Both the position numbers and the translations under genes were made by a program. Positions 20,465 through 64,000 of a DNA stretch of 64,000 bases are shown here, in pieces (the stretch's first letter is position 1; every line of letters begins with the position of its first letter). Below the pieces are notes generated by a model. The model ran no database searches and had not been told where the DNA came from. It was given only the letters and a program-made list of their open reading frames with translations. The stretch covers positions 375,782,001 through 375,846,000 of the forward strand of contig OZ024740.1 of assembly GCA_964016885.1 (NCBI GenBank). Direction: 5' to 3'. Source of the DNA: Eledone cirrhosa (taxonomy: Eukaryota).

Positions 20465-20636
20465 TAGATATAATAAAAAAGAAATAAAATTCGCTCTACA
20501 TGGACAATAAATGTAATCTGAGTTTTTCGAATATTAATAATAACATTCGATTCGTTTGTAATTTTGCAAACAAGCCTCAATTTTATAGCCATGTCAGTAG
20601 AATGAACACTTCATTCTTGCTCTTGTGTTGGCATGC

Positions 20637-20698
20637 GAACAGAACTGCAGACGCTGATGTTTCAGGGTATCACCCTTCATCAGTACAGCTCACTGTTC
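20637..20698 (-). ncRNA. Type I hammerhead ribozyme, canonical core
   Basis: GAACAG TGA GCTGTA-CTGATGA-AGGG TGATA CCCT-GAAA-CATCAGC-GTC-TGCAGT T CTGTTC. Confidence 0.85.
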
Positions 20699-21077
20699 AC
20701 CTGCCAAACTGTCAGAGCTAGTGAAAATATATGCTATTTTCAAATATACACAGTGACTGATCGGCCTGACTTGCATGTTAGCGGAATGGCTGATCAGTCA
20801 GATCTGCATATTAGCAGATCCACTGATCAGCCAGATTTGCATATCAGCAGACTGGCCAGTCAGTTTCCTGCATACAATCGATAAATGGCCGTCTTTGCTA
20901 AATTCAAATATAAAAGAAAAAGAACATTTCGCTCTACATGGCTAAATACAATAAATGTAATCTGAGTTTTTCGAATATTAATAATAATATTCGATTCGTT
21001 TGCAATTATGCAAACAAGCCTCAATGTTATAACCATGACAGAAGAATGAACACTTCATTCTTGCTCTTGTGTTGGCA

Positions 21078-21139
21078 GAACAGAACTGCAGACACTGATG
21101 TTTCTGGGTATCACCCTTCATCAGTACAGATTACTGTTC
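21078..21139 (-). ncRNA. Type I hammerhead ribozyme, tandem partner
   Basis: Same as 20637-20698 with one stem II mismatch. Confidence 0.75.
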
Positions 21140-21288
21140 ACCTGCCAAACTGTCAGAGCTAGTAAACACAAGAGCAAGAATGAAGTGTTCATTCTACTGA
21201 CATGACTATAATATTGAGGCTTCTTTGCAAAACTTCAAACGAATCGCATGTTATTATTAATATTCGAAAAATATACATAAATAAATAA

Positions 21289-29795: not shown

Positions 29796-29892
29796 ATATA
29801 TTTATATATATATTATTTATAGTTATGTATACACTATATACAACTATAAACAGGAAAGGTCAGTAATTTATTACTACCTTATTACCAGTAAG

Positions 29893-31912
29893 AAAAATAA
29901 CATGTTTACAAGCATATCAGGCACGCAAAGCTGTTTTTGTATTAAAAGTATGGGTTTATGGTGGATGTAGTGTGACGGTTGTTTCTGTAATGTTCAAATG
30001 TGTATGTGCTGAGAGTAACAATGTTATTGCTATATTTTCCATCACATCAGCTCTGTTTTATTTTAGTGAATGTTTTTAATCAGTCACAGCCATGGATTGT
30101 ACAGCGGTCCTATTATATTGCTATCCGGGGTCGAGTTGCTATGGAGTGATTCTTCTAACGGTTTAATTTCCGGAATTGAGTTTGATCTATATTAAGGGCA
30201 CAAATACCATAATCTTATCAATAAATATACCATTAAAATCTCTTACTCTACCACAGCTCACATCGCATACCATATAGCTAGTAGTAATAAAAGGAAGATT
30301 AATAATTATTTCCAACTAATTAAATCACAACAGGGGTAAATTTACAGGGCAACATAGTACCAGATATTTCTAGTAGCACTAATAATAATGATAATAGCAC
30401 TAATGAAATTAATAACAATGGGAACGACAACCATCATTACCCTACTGCTATCCCTAACAACCAGGCATCTACACAACATAGTAACCAGCAAGCAAACAAC
30501 CAAAATAACTGTAACTGTAGAACAAATAGAACTTGCCCCTTAGGTAAAAATTGCTTAATCAAAGACATCATTTACTCATGCACGGTCAACACAAACAACT
30601 CTTCTAAAACATATATCGGTTCAACTTCGAACTGTTTCAAGACGAGATATAACTCGCATCTCCAGACTTTCAAACATCGCAATGTAGCCAACTCCACTTC
30701 TTTATCTAGCTACATACACTCTCTGAAAACTAGGCATAGACCATATACACTTCAATGGGAGATAGTAGATAGGGTCGCATCGTATAAACCACGAAATAAA
30801 TTATGTAACATCTGTCTCCTAGAGACCCGAACAATAATATATTCTGAGCTAGACCTCCTAAATAGAAAATCATAGGTTTTTTCGATGTCCCAGCACTACC
30901 AGCGACACTCTTTCCATAGCTTTAAACTTAGCTGCTAATATATAACCATGTCAAATCTGAATTTCTCACCACCATTAACACTTCACCTCTAGGTCTTATC
31001 AGCATATAAGTACCCCCACAACATCAAACTCTATGATCAGCTCGTCACTCTACCTAACTCCTTTTTATCTCAAACTTTATACTATACAATAACTATTAGG
31101 AATAAACATAAGCTAACACCATTTAATATAATCACTATAGCTTGCTTATATTATATTCAGTAATGGATAGATAATAATCTGATGAGACGCTTAATGTAGT
31201 ATGGGAAAATAAATTATATTTATAATTAATTATATAAATTAATAGCATTATATATATGGGATTCACTTATAACATAATATAATGTATATTAATAGCACAA
31301 GAGATTTAACTAATTGGACCTGCGAACAACTATACATTTTTTCCTATAGCTTTCTTATACTTTATTCAGTAATGGATAGATAACAATATAATGAAACCTT
31401 TAATGTATTATAGGAAAATAGATTGTCTTTAAAATGAAATATAAACAAATATCATTATATAAAAGGGATTCACTTATAACACAATATAGTGTATATCAAC
31501 ACACAGAATGTAACTAATTGGAGCTGTAAACAACTTTACATTGTTCTAGCTTCTTAAATCATTTACAATATAATTGCTAATTACCTCCCCTTTCGTATTA
31601 GCTCCTCTTAATATAGATCAAACTCACGTCCGGAAATTAAACCGTTAGAAGAATCACTCCATAGCAACTCGAACCCCGGATAGCAATATACTAGGACCGC
31701 TGTACAATCCATGGCTGTGACTGATTAAAAGCATTCACTAAAATAAAACATAGCCAATGTGATGGAAAAGATATCAATAACATTGATACTCTCAGCACAT
31801 ACACATTTGAACATTACATAAACTACAGTCACACTACATCCACCATAAACCCATAATTTTAATACAAAAACAGCTTTGCCTGCCTGATATGCTTGTAAAC
31901 ATATGTTATTTT
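29893..31912 (+). mobile_element. 5'-truncated PLE (Naiad-like GIY-YIG, 30199-30873) between ~285-bp inverted repeats (29893-30175 / 31630-31912)
   Basis: HKYHNLINKYTIKISYST...CNCRTNRTCPLGKNCLIKDIIYSC...YIGSTSNCFKTRYNSH...WEIV..CNICLLE..LLNRKS; has the CxCx5C motif. Confidence 0.88.
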
Positions 31913-32755
31913 ATGTGATACCTTTGCCTTGCAGAAATTATATATGCCTAGTACCATTGCCTGTTTCATTCCTGTATATGCCTAATGCATTTGCACTCTC
32001 TATACGCTTGATTATGTACTGCTAGTCTCCTCGTTTTACGAGTAACTTTCTACTTTAATGCCTCTTTAATGGTTATACTATTCCCTTATAATCTATGTGG
32101 CATGCATTCCACTGTGTGCCTTTTTAATTTTTAATTTTAATTATTGTCTTGAAATCTATGTCGCGTCCATTCTATGTCGCGTCCATTCCACTCTGTAAAT
32201 ACGAAACTGTTGTTGACAACATTAATATACATGTATCTATATGATTGTTCAGTTGAAAAGGAGGTTAATTATATGTACAAACATTGCTAGAGGTCCGATG
32301 AAACGAAACGATAGTTTGGAAGAATCGATTGTCAGCAATAAAATGATTTGAACATAGCTTTGATTATTGTGTAATTTATATTCCGGCTCTGTAAAACATC
32401 TCATGTATTTACATATATGTATACAGACGTAATAAGCGCCGCTAAACTGATACGTGCATATATGTATGTGTACCTGTATGCATATGTATGTATATATGTA
32501 TATATATATATATATGTGCATGCTACTGTACGTCTGTATACATATATGTATGTACGTATACATGCATACTTACATTTAAGTAAGTGCCATACTAAGAGTG
32601 AGAAATGAAATTTCGTTTTCATTTTGTTTCAATTTATCGTTTTCGGTATGCCTGACCGATTTAACTCACTCAATATGCAAATTAGGCTACTCAGCCATTA
32701 ATTTTCATAAGGAAAGTATATACTTTCGAACGTTCAACTATCTGGCAGATGGGTA

Positions 32756-32800
32756 AACGGTGCTGATGATAGCTAACAAGCTTGAAACTAGTACATCGTT
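32756..32800 (+). ncRNA. Minimal type I hammerhead ribozyme
   Basis: AACGGTG-CTGATGA-TAGCT AACA AGCTT-GAAA-CTAG-TA-CATCGTT; palindromic stem III ACTAGT. Confidence 0.82.
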
Positions 32801-33229
32801 CCTGTGTCAGTGTTGAACAAAAAGGTGACGTGGTTGCCTTAACACCGTATGGCATAAATTCAGGCTGTTCAGTTTGTTTACAAACGAACAAAGCTACGTT
32901 ATAATAAGCGCCGCTAAACTGATACGTGCATATATGTATGTGTACCTGTATGCATATGTATGTATATATGTATATATATATATATATATGTGCATGCTAC
33001 TGTACGTCTGTATACATATATGTATGTACGTATACATGCATACTTACATTTAAGTAAGTGCCATACTAAGAGTGAGAAATGAAATTTCGTTTTCATTTTG
33101 TTTCAATTTATCGTTTTCGGTATGCCTGACCGATTTAACTCACTCAATATGCAAATTAGGCTGCTCAGCCGTTAATTTTCATAAGGAAAGTATATACTTT
33201 CGAACGTTCAACTATCTGGCAGATGGGTA

Positions 33230-33274
33230 AACGGTGCTGATGATAGCTAACAAGCTTGAAACTAGTACATCGTT
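33230..33274 (+). ncRNA. Minimal type I hammerhead ribozyme, identical tandem copy
   Basis: Identical to 32756-32800, 474 bp downstream. Confidence 0.82.
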
Positions 33275-33432
33275 CCTGTGTCAGTGTTGAACAAAAAGGT
33301 GACGTGGTTGCCTTAACACCGTATGGCATAAATTCAGGCTGTTCAGTTTGTTTACAAATGAACAAAGCGACGTTATAATAAGCGCCGCTAAACTGATACG
33401 TGCATATATGTATGTGTACCTGTATGCATATG

Positions 33433-33468
<36 letters not shown>

Positions 33469-33536
33469 CATGCTACTGTACGTCTGTATACATATATGTA
33501 TGTACGTATACATGCATACTTACATATATATATATG

Positions 33537-33567
<31 letters not shown>

Positions 33568-34199
33568 TATAGTATAGTGAGTTTATTTGGAAATATCTTA
33601 TGATTGACCCTGTCACAGTCCAGGCAACAGAAGATAGATTAATAGATTAGACATGCTTCATTTGAGATTATGAACAACAGAGTTGACATCGATCATCATT
33701 CTTTGATATCGGAAGGTTGTTTAGAGACCTAATTGGTGCTGCTGATGTTAGGGTGTTTACTCATGTGACATTACACCGGGTTACTAAGAACAATGTCAAA
33801 TTATCGGTATTGCTGTGGTAGCTCTGTGACTTAGCTTGTAATGTACGAAATATGTAGCGAAACTCACCTTTACGTTTTCCTATTGAAAATCTTAAGATAT
33901 TTGTGTGTATGCGCCAAGGTGACGTCTGGGCGAGGAAAGGAAAACATCGTAACTTATACTTGGTGTAACCAAATCATATATTCCTCCTGATTCTCAAAAC
34001 ATTCTTACACATTATTTATTTCCTAATACGGAAATGATATGCTTGTGTTCTGGATTTCACTTTCTGTCGAGTTAGTAGCCCCATGTCGTATGCAAATATC
34101 GGCCAACTGATAAACCACTCTCGCGAATTGTGATGGACTTTCGACCTGGATAGGCATGTCAATAGAATTATTGTATATAATGCATAGCAGACGTTACAA

Positions 34200-39155: not shown

Positions 39156-40767
39156 TAAAACTGATATCTTGTTATACTTTGGGAGGATAATACTGCCAAT
39201 AAAAAAAAATTAATATTCTATTTGTGTGCATGTATATGTGTCTGTGTGTGTGCGCGCGCGCGTGTGTGTATATTGAAGGTCGTTCAGTGAATTACAAGTA
39301 TTGGTGCTAGAGCAAGCAATCTATGCACAGTGTATATATTAGAAAAAAACTGAGGAAGTCTCGTTGACATATAAAAGATATTGATTGTGTATCGACCTGT
39401 TATGGGCGTTTCGACTGAAGATTGGCACAATATCACCACAGGAGTTATGGACCCGTCTCCATTATCGATCTGCTCCTCAACTGGCATTGTGGCATATAGC
39501 GTGTTTGATAAAAGGGAAAATTATTGTAATGTGTAATTTTTTAATTAGTTTAAGCAAACACAAAAGTTTTTGGTTACTGTATTCCTGCTTCCACTCACGG
39601 ATGAGTTATTCATTGAATAAATAAGTTTCTAGTACTCAAAATATATTGAACTTCAGTACACTGAAGAGTTAAAGTGGACCCATGGCTTCATTAATGGGAA
39701 TATGCTTCTGAGGATTTCTGCTGATTTTGACCAGGTCATCTACCATTCTTTCAAGAATGTGAAAGATTCATGGATGCTGATTTATTGCAAAGATGATTTT
39801 AAGATTGAATGTATTTTTGATAAAAAAAAACTATTCTTTCCTTTTTTCACCATAAGCATTATCTGGGGTTTGAAAGAATTCTAAATTGAAAATAATGAAG
39901 TTGCTTGTCAAATTACATCAATTCAATGCAAACATTGTAACATGGTTTGAATAAATTAGTGATCCCTCCTCTTTATAATGAATATATTATGCCTAAGATG
40001 CATTATCATTTTCCATAGAAAATGGTTTGTGATGTTTATAAATATTTTAGTTAACCCATTTAAGAGATTAAGAAGCATCTAGACGGAATATTCAGTATTA
40101 AGGATCAATAATGTTTTGTTAATAAATGATCATTTTACATCATATATGTAAATATTCAAATAACAACAGAATAGATCACCCACATGCAAAACTGGTTTTT
40201 GATATTTTAATTAAAAACTACCATTATTTTGAATAATATCAATATATGCGAGCTCCTGTATTCGAATTACCATATTAAAAAATACGTTCTTTCTCAATAG
40301 AGGATATACTAGCAAATCTAATATCCTAGTTAATTTCTTCCTTCAAATAATCATTATCGATGTGTACTTCAATTTCAAATATAACTCTTTAAACCAAAAC
40401 AGAATATGTGTGAGTTTGTTTCAGATATTATGCCGATTTGTGTATGTATACATTTATATATATATAAATTCATTTGAGTAAATCTTAACTTATTAAATGA
40501 TTAAATTCAAATATATATAAAGTTATCTACATTATATGATAACTTTACAAACATATATATATACACACACACACATATGTATACATATATGTAACGAAGA
40601 TATATAGATGTATATATTTATATATTTATATATATATATATATATAATCTGAGTTTTTTTAAATATTAATAATAACATTTGATCGTTTGCAATTATGCAA
40701 ACAAACCTCAATTTTATAGCCATGTCAGTAGAATGAACCCTTAATTCTTGTTCTTGTGTTGGCATGT

Positions 40768-40828
40768 GAACAGAATGCAGACACTAACGTTTCTGGGTAT
40801 CACCCTTCGTCAGTACAACTCACTGTTC
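40768..40828 (-). ncRNA. Type I hammerhead (CUGACGA core)
   Basis: GTTGTA-CTGACGA-AGGGTGATACCCA-GAAA-CGTTAGT-GTC-TGCA. Confidence 0.7.
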
Positions 40829-41285
40829 ATCTGCCAAACTGTCAGAGCTAGTGAAAATATATGCTATTTTCAAAAGTACACTGATCGGCCTGATTTGCAT
40901 ATTAGCAGACTGTCTGATCAGTCAGATCTTCATATTAGCAAATCTGCTTGTTTGCATAATTGCAAACAAATGAATCGAATGTTATTATTAATTGAAACGC
41001 AAATGAATCGAATGTTATTATTAATATTCGAAAAAGACAAATTACATTTATTGTATTCAGCCATGTAGAGTGAACATTTTCTTTTTTAACGCCGGCCATT
41101 TATCGCTCATATACAGTAAACTGACTGGCCAGTCTGCTGATATGCAAATCTGGCTGATCAGTGGATCAGCTAATATGCAGATCTGACTGATTAGCCAGCC
41201 TGCTAATATACAAATCAGGCCGATCAGTCACTGTATATTTTTGAAAATAGCATATATTTTCACTAGCTCTAACAGTTTGGCAGGT

Positions 41286-41346
41286 AAACAGTCAGCTGTA
41301 CTGATGAAGGGTGATGTCCAGAAACATTAGTGTCTGCAGTTCTGTT
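41286..41346 (+). ncRNA. Type I hammerhead (weakened stem II)
   Basis: GCTGTA-CTGATGA-AGGGTGATGTCCA-GAAA-CATTAGT-GTC-TGCAGT. Confidence 0.65.
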
Positions 41347-41455
41347 CACATGCCAACACAAGAGAAAGAATGAAGGGTTCATTCTACTGACATGGCTATA
41401 AAATTGAGGCTTGTTTGTATAATTGCAAACGAATCGAATGTTATTATTTATATTC

Positions 41456-41645
41456 GGTGGATTGGCAGTATCGGTACGCAGTCGGACGCGATGCTTTGAC
41501 GTATAGAGTTTACGGCCCTTGCTATTCTGAGTTCAAATCCCGCCGAGGTTAACTTTGCTTTTCATCCTTACGGGGTCGATAAAATAAAGTACCAGTAATG
41601 CACTGGGTAATTGCTGGCCGTGTGCCAAAAGTAGAAACAATTATT
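41456..41645 (+). mobile_element. tRNA-derived SINE with ~14-bp TSD
   Basis: ATTATTwATATTCG on both sides; the only plus-strand copy I found. Confidence 0.88.
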
Positions 41646-41721
41646 AATATTCGAAAATCTCAGATTACATTTATTGTATTCAGCCATGTAGAGCGAAAAT
41701 TGTCTTTTATATATATATATA

Positions 41722-48160: not shown

Positions 48161-49380
48161 CCTCTTGTGGAACATGTTGTAGATAGTCAATAGCTTCCTA
48201 GTCTTCCTATCCATTTCTTTTTGTTCAGCAACATTCCATTTCAGAATTCTCGCAGTGTACCTAATAATAGACACAGCTCGGGAATTCGCTCCTTACTCTC
48301 CTTATGTACTCAATCTTATCAATTCCTTCATTTTTTGTTCTCGATGTCATCTGCCTCCAGAAAACCTAAATATCAGTATCCTTCTTCAGTGTCAATTTCC
48401 TTTATCTTCTCACCTGTTGGTACCTGGATTCCCTTGCTTCTGATCAATTTACCCATGTTCATCACTAGGACTCCACACTTATTAATACCAAATTCCGTAC
48501 ATATATCATTGCTGTAAATACGGACAGTATCAACAAGTACATCCAACTCATTCTCACACTTCCCAAAGAGTTTAAGATCGTACAGGAAGAGGAGGTGTTT
48601 GATAGTAAGCTCTCCTTTTCCCAACTTGTATCCTGCTCTCACTTTTCGCAATATAACGGTCAGGGGTATCAGACCAAGGACAAACAGCAGAGGGGACAAA
48701 CTATTTCCCTGGAAGATACCTCTCTTGATCTTCACGCCTCCCAAGGATTCTCCACCCGATGTTAATTCTGTTTCCCAGGATTTCATACTTTTGCTGAACA
48801 ACTGTCTGATGTTATCTGCCACCTTGAAGATCTCTAGGTTTTTGGTTATCCAAGAATGAGGTACTATGTCGAATGCCTTTTTGTAGTCTATCCATCCCAT
48901 GGCCAGACCAGTGTGTCTCCTCTTGCAATTCCTCATTACCATCTTATCAATAAGTAACGGGTCCTTTGTACCACGGGACTTCTTTCGGCATCCTTTCTTT
49001 TTGTCCGGTAACAAGTTGTTTATGTGGAGGTGATTGTAGATTTCCTCAGACACAATGCGTGTTAACAGTTTCTACATTACGGACTGACATGTGATAGGTC
49101 TATAGTTGGTAACATCATTATCTTTGATTCGGTCTTTCATTACCAGAGCTGTGGTACCTTTTGTCAACCACTCTGGTACCTCACCTGACATCAAGCAGTT
49201 ATCGAACATGTTTGTCAGTTTCGGGTGGAGGGATGTTATATTTTTAATCCAATACCCTTGCACACTATCTGGGCCTGGTGATTTCTAGTTGGTTAGTTTT
49301 TTGGCCTGCCCTTTAAGAGTTTCATCTGTGATACTCAAATCAGTTTGTTGGTGTACTTGTTCACTAATCTCTATTTCAGA
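48160..49380 (-). mobile_element. R4/Dong-type reverse transcriptase fragment
   Basis: KSPGPDSVQGYWIK, YRPITC, GCRKKSRGTKDPLLID, WIDYKKAFD, GIFQGNSLSPLLF, HLLFLYDLK (decayed catalytic motif). Confidence 0.88.
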
Positions 49381-50043: not shown

Positions 50044-53000
50044 TTACAGTTTTTTCAAAAGAATGCTTTTGATGACAACATTCTTAGTCGACTGGGTGTC
50101 TTTCAGAAACACTCGGACATTTTGTTTTCGTTTTCCGCGGGTAAGGGCGACATAGAGTTGACCGTGTTGGAATACAGGTCGTTCCAGATAAACTAACACA
50201 TTTTCCATAGTTTGTCCTTGTGCTTTATGAATAGTCATAGCGAAGCACGATTGAACTGGAAATTGACTTCGCTGCAAAGGGATATCCTCATGTTCGGATA
50301 GATTAATTGTTATTCTAGGTATCATAACAATCTCATTTTTGAAAGCAGCACTGTTGATTCTTGCTACTAGATTGTTATGCAGTTCTTCCACGATCATGCG
50401 TGTTCCATTACAAAGCCTTGGAGGATTCAAGTTTCTCATTAGAATTATTGGTGATCCTTTTTTCAATTCCAGGTTATGTGGTGGCAGTCCTGATAGTTCA
50501 ACCGAATCAAGGAATTCAGTCGGGAAATCAGTGGCATTGGCACCATCACTCACATAATTATAGGATCGGTACTCTTTTATGGTTCCAGGGAAGCGTCTGA
50601 TACAGGTGGAATTGATGCTTCTCATCATTTAATTGAGAGGTACTAAGATGCAATTGTTCGAAAACATTTCAGTTGGATTGTCGAATGAGGGGTAGATGAA
50701 ATCAATACATTCTTCCATTGTTGTTGCTTGGAGAATCATTTCTTTTGGAAAAATAATTTCCAGATTTTCATTTTTGGGGATCTTATCTTCTCCAATATCC
50801 AATAGGAACTCTGAATAGTCTCCTGCTCCCTCACACAATCGCATGTTTGTCTTCAAATGAGATTTTTTAAAGCTTCGCCATAAGTAGGATTTTTGAATGC
50901 AGGCATTTTCCACATCTGCTTCATTTCCTCTTTTCACTACCGGAAGAAGTTGACGGAAATCTCCACAGCAAATTGTCAAAATTCCACCGAATTCCTCATT
51001 GTTGTCGCATATGTCACGCAGAGTAAGGTCAACAGCTTCGAAGCTTTCCCTCCGAATCATAGGACACTCGTCCCAAACAATCAGCCTTGTATGCTGGAAT
51101 AGGTTTGCCGTCTTTGAGTTTTTATCAATGTTGCACAGACCATTTTCTTTCACTGCTATTGGTATTTTGAACCTAGAATGCGCCGTTCTTCCACCACACA
51201 TCAGTGTTGCCGCAATGTCAGATGACGCAACAGCAATAGCCACATCGCCGTTTCCCCTAACTTTTGAAAGGATTAAGTTAAGCAAGAATGTCTTTCCTGT
51301 TCCACCTGGAGCGTCAATGAAAATCAATGCAGATGTGTTCCTCTCTAAACTGTTACAAATGAAGTCGTACACATGTTTTTGGTCACTATTCAATAAAGGT
51401 TCCCTTTCTTCTACAAATTGTCGCTGTTCTTCTTTGTTGTATTGCAATTCATGCAATAACTCCAAATTGCCAATATCCTGATTAGCGACAATATTATTTG
51501 GCATTGGCAAGTTAAAGTCACTAAGACTTTTGCCCAGGTTGTTAAGTTTGTCTTCAAAATACAGAAGACATTGATCATAATGTCTCTCGCTAATGAAAAG
51601 GCTAGAGTTTCTTGTAGCTCTTTTTTCTATCTGAAGGTAATCCTCAGACAGCGAATTCTTAAATCGAGCCCATAAAGCATTGGAATTGTCAATTTCCGTA
51701 TTTGTGAGGATCACGATGAATAGATCTCTCATGGCTTTGGGAAGCCTTGTTCGCTCAGCATCTTCCAGAGTCTGCTGCCAATGATCATCTGATTGAAGCA
51801 AACCTTTCTCTCTGCAAACGTCTTTGAATAATGGCAGGAGTTCTCCATCACACATTTTCAAAGAGTTGAAAGATACTGGTCCTTTGACGTGATGCAGAAG
51901 GAGTCTTAAATAATATAGGTCACTACTTCGTGGGGAAACAGTGTACACTCGTCCCTAAACGTTCGCCTCAAAAATTCCTGGATACTGCTCAACTATTTTC
52001 CCCACCTTCCTCCTTTCCCATCTCTTATTATTCCATGTGTAAAACTTTGGTACATCGGCATAATACAATGTTTTTGCAAACGGTTCGCGAGTGCAAAGAT
52101 CCATGAACTCAGTCAGAGTTGTCTTAGCCATGTTATTGTTTACTTTAACAGCAACATTGACCCGAAAGAAGATTTGATTTTTCTCAGGTAGATGAACTTG
52201 AAGGCGAACTACGGTCGGTTCCCTCTCATGAATTGGAAATCCAAGTACCGAGGCAACAGCTTCTGAAGGACCGATATATCTTCCTGTTAAATACTGTGTT
52301 ATCTCATCTTCCCTGTTCACTCCAAACATTGCTTGATCACTGCCCTTCATGGTATATTTTATAACGTATTTGATCGATTTCACGGAAGAGCATATCTCTA
52401 CATTTAGGTGGCAGTTGAACAGTTTTAATAGTTTCATATTGTAGGGAACCACCCATTCTGAAGTTATATTTTGGCTTTCCCTTCTTTCTTGGTGCCCTTC
52501 AAATCCTCCCATTTCAGGGGACCGTCTTCTGTACACAGGATAAGAGTCCCCTCCACACAATGTATGTTCAACAAAAGGCTTAGGGTACCGCTTACTGCAT
52601 GTTCCATCTTTCCAACACGGTGAATTGTTAGAGCAATTCGGACCATGGATCATGTGCTTCAGCACCAATTGATGAACCTCTGGATCTTTGTTTGGATCTG
52701 GTATTTCGGCTTGAACGAATTTATCATATTCCTGTGGTCTGGGCTTGGTGGTTTCATTGAGCCATAACAAACAGTGCACATGAGGAAGACCTGGCTTTTG
52801 ATATTCAACTGTCAGCACGTAAGCAATGCAGTTGCCAAATAAGCCATCTACTCCAGTAAGATGCTTTCTGAACAGTTTCCGTTTCAGGTCAAATACTCTG
52901 GCAATTAAATCTGGCCTGTCCTGTGGCTTCTGATTCAGGAAGAGGTTTTGCCGGATTTCGGGCCAGTTTGGATTGCATGTCATTGTGATGAACAACGAAG

Positions 53001-54884
53001 CATTGCCGTACTTCCGTATGTACATCATGGCATCCTGGCATCGCTCCATCATATATCTCGGTCCACCAACAAATGTAGAAGAGAGTATGATTCGTCTGCC
53101 GATGTTGCGAAAATCGTCATCATCATTCAATGCATCAGTAAGGCCCTTGTATGTTTTAGATCGCAATGTTGTTTGATTCATTTGGATGTATCTGAGCCTA
53201 TCTCCTTCAATCTTTGCAGCCATGTCAACCAAATATTGCTGAAATAAACGACCACCTCTGAGAAGTTGGTTGAATTCATTCTCATGGTTCATTATTCGAT
53301 AGGCATAGTAGCGCATCGGTGTCAATTTCTTGATGTTGCTCATTAACAGCTCATGATGCCATCCATCATCGCCAAAAGGAAAAAATAGAACATACTGCAA
53401 ACTATCATAGGACCGATGGGACTCTGAGATTATTTTCAGTTGTTCACCTTTTTCTTTCAACACGATCTGCCGTGCTTTTGATTGAAGTTCGGTGCTCTTT
53501 TGTATAATAACAGCAACTTCATTTGCAGTTTGTGCATTGAATCTTCTGTCATGTTCCATTGCTGGTCTCCTATCAGGATCAATAATAATCGAAGCTTCGG
53601 GAATATTTTTAATTTGTTCTTTTGCCAGTTGAAATGACGCAACATAAGGGTTATATTGTCTCAGTATAATTTCTAATAATTCAACTATGTCGCGCTGAAT
53701 GCCATCGTTATGGATTATCCTGATCCTTAAATCAACACTATCCTGAGGATCCAAGAAGTAAATTTGAAGAAATTTGGGTTGTTCATTGGGATTAGGAGTT
53801 AAGGAACCGATGTAATGGTGAATTTGACCATGAATAACAATAGAAGGATTCCATCCACTTCTTGAGGTACGAACTTCTTTGGCCCCAAAAGATGTCATTT
53901 GGAATAAGCAGTTGTATTGTCTGAGGTTCTTCCTGAACTCGTTTGCTCTAGGTTGATCTGTACTAAATAAATGTTGAAGTTCTTGGGGTAAAGGCTGCAG
54001 ATTCCCTAGCCTGACTTTTCCATTCATACAGCAAAAGTTAGCAGTTTCACCATGAAAAAGCATTGCATGGCAACAGACACAGATCTTATTCATTTGTCCA
54101 ACATCAGCAGAGAGGTCACGTCGTTGAACTGTCTTTGCTCTATCCTTCTGTTCCACCAGACGTGCAGCTTTCTGAGCATTCGATTCCTGATCTTTCTTTC
54201 TTCTGTTTCTTTCCCTCTGTTCCGCCAGACGTGCAGCTCTCCGAGCCTCCGATTCCTGATCTCTCCTGCTTCTGTCTCTTTCTCCCTGTTCTGCCAGACG
54301 TGCAGCTCTCCGAGCCTCCGATTCCTGATCTCTCCTGCTTCTGTCTCTTTCTCCCTGTTCCGCCAGACGTGCAGCTTTCAGAGCCTCCGATTCCTGATCT
54401 CTCCTGCTTCTGTCTCTTTCTCCCTGTTCTGCCAGACGTGCAGCTCTCCGAGCCTCCGATTCCTGATTACTCCTGCTTCTGTCTCTTTCTCCCTGTTCTG
54501 CCAGACGTGCAGCTCTCCGAGCCTCCGATTCCTGATCTCTCCTGCTTCTGTCTCTTTCTCCCTGTTCTGCCAGACGTGCAGCTCTCCGAGCCTCCGATTC
54601 TTGATCTCTCCTGCTTCTGTCTCTTTCTCCCTGTTCCACCAGACGTGCAGCTTTCCGAGCCTCCGATTCCTGATCTCTCCTGCTTCTGTCTCTTCCCTCT
54701 GTTCCGCCAGACGTGCAGCTCTTGCTTTATCAGTCTCATCGATCCTTCTCTTCGCATGCCTGTCCTGGTCTTGTTGTTGGCATTGACCACTATCTTGCTC
54801 ACCTTCTTCGGCTTTCCTTAGCCGCACTCTCTTCCCATTATCTGTAGTCGAACAAGATGTTTTCTTTCTTCCTCGTTGAGGCAT
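50044..54884 (-). pseudogene. Helitron RepHel transposase (HUH-Y2 Rep + PIF1 helicase), ~1600 codons, one frameshift and two in-frame stops
   Basis: FITMTCNPNWPEI, EYQKPGLPHVHCL, KYVIKYTMKG, DAPGGTGKT, IVWDE, GDFRQ, MTIHKAQGQT, HGQLYVALTR. Stops at 51955-57 and 50629-31 are in frame. One N-terminal repeat unit is 68 rather than 69 bp. Confidence 0.95.
54140..54725 (-). repeat. 69-bp coding minisatellite (~9 units; 23-aa EQGERDRSRRDQESEARRAARLA)
   Basis: CAGACGTGCAGC recurs at 54157, 54226 ... 54640, 54708. Confidence 0.95.
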
Positions 54885-60015: not shown

Positions 60016-63000
60016 ATAATGATACATGACATACCCTGAGATGTTAAATGATTAAGATTTAATCAAGGTAGTGATTAACCCGATAGGCAATTTTACTTAT
60101 ATCCTATTTATGGGAAAATGCGAAAACGTAATAAATTCATTAGAGAATGTGTGGGTAATAAAAAAAACGTTGCATACTGTAATTGTTCTAAAATGTTAAA
60201 GTGTATGATACTACGATATATCTAGGAAAACGTCTCATGAATCATAACAGCCAGTGATAGCCACTGGAAAAATGATTTATAAAGAAGGAAAAATAAAGCG
60301 CGGGGTGTGGGTCGAAAGTTAAACGGTTAGATTTGAAAATATTTAATTTATAATATTAGGGTGAAGACTCCAGATTTCAGGATTATTTGCTGGTTATTTA
60401 TATATTATTTATATTAATTCGAAAAGTGTGTTATCATTTCTAAACTTCTGAATTGTGAGAGTAATATTTACAGGATTTAGTTGGCATATAAATAATGAAA
60501 TATTATACTGTTGATCATTTACCTAAATTTAAACTTTAACAAATATACCAACTTATTGTTATAAATATTTAAATAACTATTATGTATATAGGTATACTTT
60601 AAGGAGCCAGTATGTTTAAGGTAAATAATAACGACGAATATAAAAATAAAATAAGATAATATATTGAAGGATGTTAAGGATAAATATATACATATGTATA
60701 ACTGAGTGTAAATGCACTAATTGTTCTTCAACCAAGGTATCAACATATTATTAGATATAGGGATGTATATATATAGATATATATTAGGTATTATTAGTGT
60801 AGTATACTTTAAGTAAATGATAACAGTTATAATCTTATCACAGTGTCACATTTAAATACATATATATATATATACATATAAGAAAAACAACAATGAGTGC
60901 ATGGATAATACAGAGTTCAAAATAATGTCTATAATAATTTCTAGTTTGGATATTTTCTCTATATTTGAATCATATATATAGAAATGTGGTAGGTATATTT
61001 AAAAATATTTAAAAATATATAAAATATAATATATAACTACATACATATTATAATAGATTATATTATAAATAAATAAGAGATCGAAAGTACAGCGAAAGAT
61101 ACACATTTATATATAAGTTTGAATCCATCTCAAAATTTAGATTTTATAGTGCAGTAAATATATTTATAATAAATATATGCTTTATTATATTATAAATAAT
61201 AGATCAAAAACTCATTAAAAATTTAGAGTTATAGATAAGTTTCATAAAAATGTATGGATAGGGTATTAAACTGAAATTTAAAAGAGATCACGAATGTATT
61301 AACAATTCACAGTTAAATAAATTCCATAAATATGTAAGGATTAGGTATTATACTAAATTATAATCATAGATAGAAATAAGGAGATGAAGAAATGAGAGTA
61401 TTGATCAAAGTTAACAAATAATGTTGTATGAATCAATGGTTAGGCTTGTTAGTTGAAATATTGTCATTCATTCCAGCGTTGTTTCTTCTATAGATAGTTA
61501 TAAAATAAAGCAATATTAAAGGCCATTAATGTTTTTTACTGTTGATTATATATTCCTGGTAACCGAGTTGTTATTGGTTTGGTATAATTGTTTCTTTCTT
61601 TCTCGTTTTATGTGAGGCTAAAAAAGTGGACGTGGATTTATGGAGGCAACTAGAAAATAATTCACTTTTTTTGTTAATTAGGGTCTCATAATTATTAATA
61701 ATCAACAGGGCCTCCATTGTACAGAGCGGACAGTTATTTGATATACTAGAGTTGCGGTAAATTCCAAATTTCCGAAGTTTTGTCCAAAGAATGGAGTATT
61801 ATAAATTCTTCTCTTTTAAAGACCATATGAGCTGTGATAAAGACGTGGATGATTTCTTCTTAGAGTTCGAGAATGATCATTTATGGTTCGCAAAACGAGC
61901 CTTGAATGTGGACGAGGTTGATCCAATGTAATTTTATGTTTTGTGATCAGATATTACGGTGCATTTATAAACAGAAATATGCTAGATAAATCGAGAATAC
62001 GAACTAGATCTAAACCAGTCATATGGTTTGCACCCCTTGCTTCGGTCGCAGTTAAAACACCAATTGCAAAACTATTCTTTAAAGCTCTTGACACCTCTTT
62101 CCCTACTCAAAATAAATACAATTCCATTTTTAATAGACATACCATTAAATTCGCGAATTCTACAACCAGTAACATGGCCCAAAACATCGCCAAATTAAAC
62201 GCCAAAATCCTAGAACCAAACCAACGTAATGATCATAATAATAGAGTTAACATTAATGATACTAAACCAAAATGTAATTGTAGAAATAAAATAAATTGCC
62301 CTTTTGTAAAATTAGATACTAATTTGGTTTATAAACCAAATTAGTATCTAAACAATTATTTTGCATATTTTTAAATATTTTTAAATATACCTACCACATT
62401 TCTATATATATGATTAAAATATAGAGAAAATATCCAAACTCAAAATTATTATCGACATTATTTTGAACTCTGTATTATCCATGCACTCATTGTTGTTTTT
62501 CTTATATGTATATATATATGTATTTAAATGTGACACGCTGATAAGATTATAACTGTTATCATTTACCTAAAGTATACTACCTAATATATATATCTATATA
62601 TATACATCCCTATATCTAATAATATGTTGATTTATTGGTTGAAGAATAATTAGTGCATTTACACCCAGTTATACATATGTATATATTTATCCCTAATATC
62701 CTTCAATATATTATCTTATTTTATTTTTATATTCGTCGTTATTATTTACCTTAAACGTACTGGCTTATATACCTATATACATAATAGTTATTTAAATATT
62801 TATAACAATAAGTACTTCAAAAGCTTTACATACCTAATATGTTGGTATATTTGTTAAAGTTTAAATTTATATGTTATATTTCATTATTTATGTGCCAGCT
62901 AAATTCTTTAAATGTTACTCTCAAAATTCAGAAGTTTAGAAATGAACTTATCGAATTAATATAAATAATATATAAATGACCAGCAAATAATCCTGAAATC

Positions 63001-63509: not shown

Positions 63510-63629
63510 GGAGGAAGTGTGGTAAGGAACCAGATGGATGATAACGCACCGCAGTACACAATACTTAGGGTAGTAGAGTGGGTAATAGGAAAATGCTCGG
63601 TGTGTTTGTAAAGAAACATCCCGTATTAA

Positions 63630-64000
63630 GCCGTAGTGTCCAGCAACCATCGTTGCTCGTTTGTTCAACACTGACAAAGGAACGCTGTACTAGTTTCATG
63701 TACTAGTTATATATATGTACGTGTACATACTTATATTTAAATAACAGCCGTACTAAGAGTGGGAAATGAAATTTCGTTTCATTTTTTCCGTTTATCGTTT
63801 TCGGTGCCCCCGGCCGATTAACCCACTCGATATGCAAATTGGGCTACTCAGCCGTTAATATGCATAAGGTAAGTATATACGTTCAACAATCTGGCAGGAA
63901 GGTATACGTTGCTGACGATAGCTAATAAGCTTGAAACTTCTACAGCGTTCCTTTGTCAGTGTTGAACAAACGAGCAACGATGGTTGCTGGACACTACGGC
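63630..64000 (+). mobile_element. Diverged copy of the 474-bp HHR family with an inverted 5' arm (63630-63697); HHR at 63906-63948; runs off the window
   Basis: ATGCAAAT at 63832; ACGTTG-CTGACGA-TAGCTAATAAGCTT-GAAA-CTTC-TA-CAGCGT; 63630-63697 is the reverse complement of 63933-64000. Confidence 0.78.

What the first reader, a model, noticed from the sequence alone, without database searches (positions are those of the whole stretch)
32430..33524. 474-bp tandem unit: octamer + hammerhead, a candidate retrozyme producing a circular RNA
Seen: 2.3 near-identical non-coding units. Each full unit has ATGCAAAT (32675, 33149) 88 nt before an HHR core, with predicted cleavage after 32793 and 33267. 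The palindromic stem III lets the two adjacent HHRs pair as a dimer. The diverged copy at 63.7-64 kb keeps the octamer and core and swaps a stem I G.U pair to U.G, which fits structural constraint. All copies share a U.U mismatch at the base of stem II. Established: metazoan non-LTR retrozymes are tandem HHR units yielding monomer/circular RNA, and newt satellite 2 uses snRNA-type octamer elements. Inference: a 474-nt monomer is excised and possibly circularised.
Basis: partly seen in the sequence, partly recalled or inferred. Interest (0 to 1): 0.8.

Follow-up and report, generated by a model that had tools for sequence, protein, structure and literature searches.

The report
Self-cutting RNA retroelement with own promoter
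This 474-bp tandem repeat is one copy of an abundant, protein-less jumping element whose units each carry a hammerhead ribozyme motif and motifs matching the host's own small-nuclear-RNA promoters, so it likely makes a self-cut, probably circular RNA that Penelope-type retrotransposons would copy into (TA)n repeats.

Summary
In detail: 2.3 units of 474 bp, each full unit with an octamer 88 nt before a type I hammerhead core. It is one insertion of a dispersed non-LTR retrozyme family (25,528 exact cores genome-wide, control 0), not a local duplication and not the pLTR of a PLE. Copies end in (TA)n at one of two fixed 3' ends, 51-59 nt apart. Inverted two-armed copies pair one end of each kind (36 of 37 classable pairs), which is the Penelope-like 'tail' signature. 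Helices covary with a 59%-identical sister family. No arm starts at the cleavage site (0 of 179), so templates span it: circles or uncut multimers. The octamer is best read as a promoter element. The same TATGCAAAT-N-AG lies at -76/-77 of two of this genome's U6 genes. A YCAG plus TATA pair, spaced as in its U1/U2/U4/U5 promoters, follows it in most of the diverged hammerhead families found. Predicted +1 is 32747, 47 nt before the cut. No RNA data were available, so transcription, cleavage and circularisation are inferred. Known kind (retrozyme, like newt satellite 2), with promoter and integration anatomy not found in the papers I read.

The parts
32410..32430 (-). 21-nt inverted stub (5' inversion) of the insertion
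   Evidence: exact reverse complement of the unit's AT-rich segment
32430..33526 (+). direct arm of the family A retrozyme insertion: 5'-truncated partial unit, one full cut-to-cut unit, partial unit ending at the short (S) 3' end
32674..32685 (+). octamer 12-mer TATGCAAAT-T-AG, putative promoter element; also the 5' arm of a predicted hairpin
   Evidence: same 12-mer at -76/-77 of U6 loci L275 and L276; octamer or a close variant in families A-F; hairpin
32691..32694 (+). TCAG, putative PSE core
   Evidence: YCAG at -55..-58 in 25 of 26 own U1/U2/U4/U5 loci; rank 1 of 400 local positions with the snRNA-built matrix
32717..32722 (+). TATATA, putative -30 box; predicts +1 at A32747
   Evidence: 26 nt after TCAG, as in own Pol II snRNA promoters
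32756..32800 (+). type I hammerhead 1 (stem I 7 bp, core 32763-32793, predicted cut after GUA 32793); stem I extends as a rod from ~32734 to ~32818
32794..33267 (+). predicted 474-nt monomer between the two cuts
   Evidence: sequence; linear fold -156.4 kcal/mol, z -9.3, inflated by the AT-repeat hairpin; circular fold
33048..33052 (+). short (S) 3'-end site, in a predicted hairpin loop
   Evidence: 68 of 179 arms end at S
33107..33111 (+). long (L) 3'-end site TTTAT, single-stranded in a multiloop closed by a covarying helix
   Evidence: 81 of 179 arms end at L; helix A-U to G-C change in 6 of 24 copies
33148..33196 (+). second octamer / TCAG / TATATA set
33230..33274 (+). type I hammerhead 2 (predicted cut after 33267)
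33527..33576 (.). (TA)n target microsatellite at the 3' end
63592..64000 (+). two-armed copy of sister family B (inverted arm from 63592; direct arm runs on to ~64066); both 3' ends truncated, stem III mutated
20500..21270 (-). distant sister family D, two hammerheads 441 nt apart, with 33-bp octamer repeats
40650..41720 (+). two-armed family D copy flanked by (TA)n

Best explanation
This is one insertion of a dispersed, ORF-less tandem element with a type I hammerhead motif in each unit (a non-LTR retrozyme), likely transcribed from an internal snRNA-type promoter, predicted to cut itself into 474-nt monomers that likely circularise, and likely copied into (TA)n by a Penelope-like element's enzyme. 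Steps: (1) the octamer, YCAG and TATA would start Pol II at about 32747, 47 nt before the first cut (inferred, ~0.6); (2) two adjacent hammerheads would pair through palindromic stem III and release the monomer, removing the capped leader (inferred from known type I behaviour plus covariation, ~0.85); (3) a host ligase would close monomers and dimers into circles (inferred, ~0.65); (4) a PLE endonuclease would nick both strands of (TA)n, one strand priming at site L and the other at site S on the RNA, and reverse transcription would run through the junction repeatedly, giving tandem, 5'-truncated, often inverted two-armed insertions (end pattern shown, enzyme inferred, ~0.85); (5) the likeliest partner is the Neptune/Nematis-type PLE of this genome (~0.45).
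For: Dispersed and young: 1,632 and 1,087 candidates for families A and B with best hits 96-100% identical; 25,528 cores. Of 179 arms in 107 loci, 81 end at L, 68 at S, 30 elsewhere; 136 of 149 S/L ends abut (TA)n; of 55 diverging pairs 36 are L+S, 1 L+L, 0 S+S, and 18 have an unclassed end. Family C repeats this in 11 of 12 two-armed loci. PMC8557442 (passages) describes this inverted arrangement with a one-sided tail as PLE-typical. 0 of 179 arms start at the cut site. Variants seen in one locus only are shared by most or all units and both arms in several arrays: L129 8/8, L092 8/9, L011 3/3; L098 4/4 in one arm. Dimer periodicity in L117 and L042. Stem I, stem II and a helix closing ~210 nt stay paired with different sequence in family C, 59% identical. 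Promoter: U6 loci L275 and L276 carry the same 12-mer at -76/-77 with TATA at -30; YCAG at -55..-58 in 25 of 26 Pol II snRNA loci; the site 16 nt after the octamer ranks 1 of 400 in A, B, D and F, 4 in C and 2-4 in E. Neptune-type PLEs with open 1,217-aa frames also end in (TA)n with two ends ~55 nt apart.
Against: No RNA evidence of any step. The window's two units differ at loop/bulge positions (A,A versus G,G) shared with other loci, so a single monomer circle did not template this array; most locus-private variants occur in one segment only. Promoter scores (6-13 bits) lie below the in-sample snRNA range (14-21). A full-length matrix scores A at -9 and B at -26, below all leave-one-out snRNAs. 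The three-box rule misses family C, and the boxes were chosen after seeing family A. The octamer, TCAG and TATATA also sit in predicted RNA hairpins. The octamer is absent from the proximal promoters of the Pol II snRNAs (1 of 26 within 500 nt, at -399), and proximal (exact or one-mismatch) in only 4 of 8 U6 loci inspected. No sequence homology to the Neptune pLTR. In Xenopus only 1 of 9 predicted retrozyme dimers cleaved in vitro (10.64898/2026.07.22.740005, results section).
Confidence: 0.7

Rival explanations
1. Same retroelement, but the templates are uncut linear multimeric read-through transcripts; the hammerhead only trims or limits RNA and no circle is an intermediate, with arrays regrown by DNA-level duplication.
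For: Units within arrays, including the window's, are often heterogeneous for shared variants. Linear multimers also span the cut site. L122 shows DNA-level duplication of whole insertions.
Against: Fixed 3' ends plus 5' truncation would shrink arrays each round, yet arms with 5-8 cores exist (6 of 179). Rare variants run through both inverted arms and terminal partial units. The ribozyme fold is kept across families. Circles were shown for coral, mussel and axolotl retrozymes (PMC7229834, results).
Confidence: 0.2
2. The octamer region is kept as an RNA hairpin or protein-binding site on the RNA, and transcription comes from read-through of outside promoters.
For: The octamer is one arm of a predicted hairpin in A, B and C. 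Five other runs of 8-10 nt are equally invariant between A, B and C. Matrix scores are modest.
Against: The partner strand varies while the octamer strand does not. The same 12-mer sits in U6 promoters, where it is not transcribed. The fixed 8-nt gap to YCA(G/C) and a TATA at 40-45 nt recur in families whose spacers do not align. Family D carries 3-4 tandem octamer repeats.
Confidence: 0.25
3. The unit is the terminal pseudo-LTR of an autonomous PLE and this tandem is a local duplication or debris.
For: It has PLE-type ends. PLE fragments lie near both window copies (GIY-YIG at 30324-30875, E 7.5e-4). Xenopus retrozymes resemble pLTRs.
Against: In the Neptune-type PLE the S-L tail runs into the ORF start and the hammerheads are ~4.1 kb apart; here L returns to the next hammerhead within 156 nt. 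9 of 66 single-armed 5' flanks hold a PLE fragment within 1.5 kb, none in sense closer than ~480 nt and none at a shared junction.
Confidence: 0.05

Closest known systems
Metazoan non-LTR retrozymes (Cervera and de la Pena 2020, PMC7229834; Li, Clavereau and Pollet 2026, bioRxiv 10.64898/2026.07.22.740005)
   Same: ORF-less, low-GC tandem units with a canonical type I hammerhead, weak palindromic stem III and a U.U at the base of stem II (as axolotl HHR_Amex2); thousands of dispersed copies; co-occur with PLEs.
   Different: Unit of 424-474 nt is above the ~170-400 nt reported in PMC7229834. In the parts read, neither paper describes (TA)n targeting, two fixed 3' ends, inverted two-armed copies or an internal promoter (word searches). 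Neither text has a cephalopod or octopus mention.
Newt satellite 2
   Same: Tandem hammerhead repeat transcribed by Pol II from an internal snRNA-type promoter (stated in a passage of PMC2220036 citing Coats et al. 1994).
   Different: Here the octamer is proximal (16 nt before the PSE-like core), as in this genome's U6, and a TATA is present. The newt octamer and a start about 47 nt before the cut are recalled; the primary paper was not held.
Endonuclease-positive Penelope-like elements, Neptune/Nematis and Naiad clades (Craig et al. 2021, PMC8557442)
   Same: 5' truncation, partial tandems, inverted 5' copies, one-sided tail, (TA)n preference; hammerhead then S then L in the same order as the genome's Neptune-type element.
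   Different: No ORF; tail 51-59 nt (about 70 in family C) versus 30-40 bp in the paper; no sequence similarity to the Neptune-type pLTR examined.

Membership tests
non-LTR retrozyme | short tandem units each with a type I hammerhead | tested here: met
   46 of 179 arms hold two or more cores
non-LTR retrozyme | no ORF or LTR; low GC | tested here: met
   the only frame of 120+ aa over the array is low-complexity, from the AT repeat; region GC 34%; PBS/PPT not searched for
non-LTR retrozyme | dispersed multi-copy, co-existing with autonomous PLEs | tested here: met
non-LTR retrozyme | self-cleavage in vitro, better as dimer | not testable with these tools
   only fold, energy and covariation
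non-LTR retrozyme | expressed as monomeric linear and circular RNA | not testable with these tools
   no RNA holder listed
autonomous PLE (unit as its pLTR) | RT plus GIY-YIG ORF between the repeats | tested here: not met
PLE-mobilised element | 5' truncation, inverted copy, tail on one end only | tested here: met
   36 of 37 classable pairs L+S; 11 of 12 in family C
PLE-mobilised element | terminal sequence shared with an identified autonomous partner | tested here: inconclusive
   no homology to the Neptune-type N2 loci; a 14-nt pyrimidine-rich likeness to another element's end is out of register; other PLE families not surveyed
snRNA-type promoter | PSE core and -30 box at host spacing | tested here: met
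   TCAG then TATATA 26 nt later, as in own U1/U2/U4/U5; weaker in families C and E (YCAC)
snRNA-type promoter | octamer placed as in host snRNA genes | tested here: inconclusive
   matches U6 (-76 to -78 in 4 of 8 loci inspected) but not the Pol II snRNAs (0 of 26 proximal); octamer to TATA 40-45 nt here versus 46-48 in U6
snRNA-type promoter | SNAPc/POU binding and a mapped start | not testable with these tools
   needs experiment

The most novel reading that the evidence does not exclude
A superfamily of at least five deeply diverged retrozyme lineages in this genome carries a hybrid host snRNA promoter (U6-type proximal octamer with Pol II-type PSE/TATA spacing) inside an RNA circle. The hammerhead cuts off the capped 47-nt leader so the promoter is regenerated in every copy. 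A PLE enzyme primes the two strands of a (TA)n break at two fixed single-stranded sites on that circle. This would give a minimal, self-transcribing model substrate for PLE retrotransposition and suggest that snRNA-type promoters are a general feature of animal retrozymes from molluscs to newts.
Probability: 0.4. Interest if true: 0.75.

Novelty: new variant of a known kind. Interest (0 to 1): 0.56.

Why it matters
How animal retrozymes are transcribed and which enzyme moves them is proposed but not shown in the papers read (PMC7229834 discussion; 10.64898/2026.07.22.740005 discussion), and PMC8557442 calls the origin of PLE inverted repeats and tails open. This family gives base-level predictions for all three: a start site, two priming sites with a strict one-of-each rule, and a candidate partner with intact ORFs. 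At more than 25,000 cores it is also a sizeable repeat of this genome; the one recent octopus repeat annotation checked never uses the word ribozyme (PMC13282606).

Tried and rejected
Rfam: nothing at gathering, only sub-threshold HH9. RNA evidence: no RNA holder listed; four runs of unrecorded kind laid as contigs told nothing about ends or expression. Octamer as a vertebrate-type distal enhancer: rejected, 1 of 26 Pol II snRNA loci has an exact octamer within 500 nt. Three-box promoter rule including AATTAA at -33: fits 12 of 15 snRNA promoters and family A/B (34 of 2,000 shuffled units, 64 of 73 copies) but is post hoc and absent in family C; dropped for the two-box plus octamer reading. 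Full-length matrix: not significant. Pol III with site L as terminator: disfavoured because T4 runs lie at 33090, 33096, 33114 and 33176 and L lies ~8-10 nt beyond the T6-7 run in B and older A copies. HHR-cut linear RNA as template: 13 apparent 5' ends at the cut were alignment artefacts; 12 extend 7 nt or more upstream and one starts 4 nt downstream. Partner by sequence: none found; Pfam gave no family for the 1,217-aa ORF, whose PLE identity rests on BLASTP to an RVT_1 + GIY-YIG protein (E 9e-17) and motifs. L273 and L274 (octamer plus core pattern hits) lack the boxes and are treated as chance. Earlier findings: three look-ups, nothing. Newt primary papers were not held. No supplements were read; those of PMC7229834 and the 2026 preprint may list cephalopod elements.

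Full report
Observation. The array is real: 32430-33525, period 474, 2.3 copies, 98% matches. Each full unit has ATGCAAAT at 32675 or 33149 and, 88 nt later, a type I hammerhead core with a 7-bp stem I, a 4-bp stem II over a U.U, and the palindrome ACTAGT as stem III; the cut is predicted after GUA at 32793 and 33267. Rfam does not call it (0 hits at gathering; HH9 18.5 bits, E 0.21). The genome is 3.0 Gb; that it is probably an octopus is my inference from size and repeats, not a call result.

Family. The unit is dispersed. There are 1,632 candidates for this family (A) and 1,087 for the 63.7-kb copy, which belongs to a young sister family B with a ~424-bp unit. A 31-nt core pattern has 25,528 exact matches against 0 for the control. 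A relaxed pattern (251 matches, control 2) led to family C: 469-bp unit, GUC triplet in 25 of 30 cores, 1,002 candidates, 181 of 306 positions (59%) identical to A outside the AT tract and core. A core scan of the window found family D. An octamer-plus-core pattern (27,640 matches, control 30) gave E and one locus of F; E and F were selected for the octamer, C and the window's D copies were not.

Integration anatomy. I parsed 107 loci: best hits of A and B, a positional sample made of most of the first 100 core matches on contig 1, and two long arrays. Of 179 arms not cut by a locus edge, 81 end at site L (318 nt after the cut in A, 277 in B), 68 at site S (259, 226) and 30 elsewhere; 136 of the 149 S/L ends abut (TA)n. 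Of 55 diverging two-armed pairs, 36 are L+S, 1 L+L, 0 S+S, and 18 have an unclassed end; three of the L+S pairs come from one duplicated locus (L122). In the positional sample alone it is 18 of 18 classable pairs, among 28. Family C gives L+S in 11 of 12 two-armed loci among 14 read. The window's insertion is an S-ended arm with a 21-nt inverted stub at 32410-32430. 5' truncation, an inverted 5' copy, a tail on one end and (TA)n bias are described for PLEs in PMC8557442 (passages). So the element is inferred to be moved by a PLE enzyme priming both strands of a break at two fixed places in the RNA. Both sites fold as U/A-rich single strands in the circular models of A and C.

Not a pLTR. In the genome's full-length Neptune/Nematis-type element (open 1,217-aa frame, CxxxxCxxC before GIY-YIG; no Pfam hit) the S-L tail is the ORF start and the hammerheads are about 4.1 kb apart. 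In the retrozyme, L returns to the next cut within 156 nt. Of 66 single-armed 5' flanks, 9 hold a PLE fragment within 1.5 kb, none in sense nearer than ~480 nt and none at a shared junction. The two Neptune-type families seen also end in (TA)n with ends ~55 nt apart, though with some intermediate ends. They are the best partner candidates, but no sequence is shared with the N2 loci tested, so this step is weak.

RNA structure under selection. Against family C, proximal stem I, stem II, mid stem I and a helix closing ~210 nt stay fully paired with different letters (helices picked by hand). Stem III stays palindromic; closing it in a monomer costs 5.4 kcal/mol and a self-duplex gives -4.8, in line with the dimer model in PMC4209133 (passages).

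Template. None of 179 arms begins at the cut, although the loci were chosen for holding a core. Templates therefore span the junction. Variants seen in only one of 107 loci run through both arms in several arrays (L129 8/8, L092 8/9, L011 3/3, L059 2/2) and through the terminal partial unit in L098 (4/4); L117 and L042 alternate with dimer period. This fits repeated copying around monomer or dimer circles. Against a simple picture: most private variants are in one segment only, and the window's own units differ at two unpaired positions whose variants recur in other loci, so this array came from a mixed or dimeric template or was converted later. Uncut linear multimers are not excluded.

Promoter. 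I compared the unit with the genome's own snRNA genes. Of 26 U1, U2, U4 and U5 loci inspected (50 fetched, many from the same arrays), 25 have YCAG at -55 to -58, most have a TATA-like box near -30, and 1 has an exact octamer within 500 nt, at -399. Of 8 U6 loci inspected (16 fetched), two on different contigs carry TATGCAAAT-G/T-AG at -76/-77, two copies of one array carry ATGCTAAT-TAG at -78, and four have none nearby. Families A-F show the same ATGCAAAT-N-AG (N-GG in B), YCA(G/C) 16 nt after its start, and TATA 40-45 nt after it. In 965 kb of mostly retrozyme-selected flanks, 56 of 61 such 12-mers are followed by a hammerhead core. A two-box matrix built only from 15 distinct Pol II snRNA promoters ranks that position 1 of 400 in A, B, D and F, 4 in C and 2-4 in E, with scores of 6-13 against 14-21 in sample; two other pattern hits failed. 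YCAG-to-TATA spacing is about 26, as in the Pol II snRNAs, versus about 30 for the matching positions in U6, and T4 runs lie before the second hammerhead, so Pol II is preferred. Both boxes put +1 at about A32747, 47 nt before the cut and within the 5' strand of the extended stem I. Against: a full-length matrix scores the site poorly, the AATTAA box is not kept in C, the boxes were first noticed in A, and all three motifs also lie in predicted hairpins.

Mechanism, shown versus inferred. Shown: tandem ORF-less units, copy number, end classes and pairing, target, helix conservation, motif match to own snRNA promoters. Inferred: transcription from 32747, dimer-assisted cleavage, ligation to circles (shown for coral, mussel and axolotl retrozymes in PMC7229834; results and discussion read), PLE-driven two-site priming, and the Neptune-type partner. 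In the 2026 preprint (introduction to discussion read) only 1 of 9 predicted dimers cleaved, so activity cannot be assumed.

Comparison and novelty. It is a non-LTR retrozyme by every feature testable here and works like newt satellite 2, for which I saw only a citing passage (PMC2220036). Searches for hammerhead + retrozyme + octopus, hammerhead ribozyme + cephalopod + retrotransposon, retrozyme + promoter + snRNA, Penelope + rolling circle + tail + inverted and U6 promoter + cephalopod + octamer listed no paper describing a cephalopod retrozyme, its two-end rule or its promoter; most of these were judged from listings, and the library lacks subscription journals and Repbase. Verdict: new variant of a known kind, interest 0.56.

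Noticed in passing
window 20500-21270 (-) and 40650-41720: A further hammerhead retrozyme family (D) with 3-4 tandem 33-bp octamer repeats and a PSE-like stretch close to that of U2 locus L133.
   Followed up: partly
L275, L276, L277 upstream of U6: U6 promoters of this genome have a proximal octamer at -76 to -78 and TATA at -30; its Pol II snRNA genes have AATTAA near -90, YCAG near -57 and a TATA-like box, with no octamer. Possibly useful for guide-RNA expression in this animal.
   Followed up: partly
window 63356 (+) and 60008 (-): Inverted pair of PLE-type hammerheads around a decayed PLE fragment (61922-62344).
   Followed up: no
window 29880-31910: Older PLE with GIY-YIG (30324-30875) and inverted terminal copies; a degenerate hammerhead-like stretch near 32296.
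   Followed up: partly
window 49498 (+): Hammerhead-like core near an RT fragment (48373-49071, minus strand).
   Followed up: no
L254-L259: Neptune/Nematis-type PLE with many 96%-identical copies and open 1,217-aa frames; its short 3' end falls just after the putative start codon, so the tail is the ORF's N-terminus.
   Followed up: partly
L092:1-1336, L103, L106, L107: Another (TA)n-targeting element with inverted arms and a ~40-nt tail; no hammerhead noticed in the stretch read; possibly Naiad-type (not tested).
   Followed up: partly
window 32689 and 32697 (unit positions 370 and 378): A/G variation recurs at these two unpaired positions within and between young arrays; CpG decay explains one, and RNA editing or mixed templates could explain the other.
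   Followed up: partly
L268-L272: Families E and F: hammerheads with unrelated stems but the same octamer-YCA-TATA geometry; tandem structure not established for F.
   Followed up: partly
window 50044-54726 (-): Near-complete Helitron-like Rep/helicase frames with a 69-bp coding tandem repeat (identified by eye from the translation, not tested).
   Followed up: no
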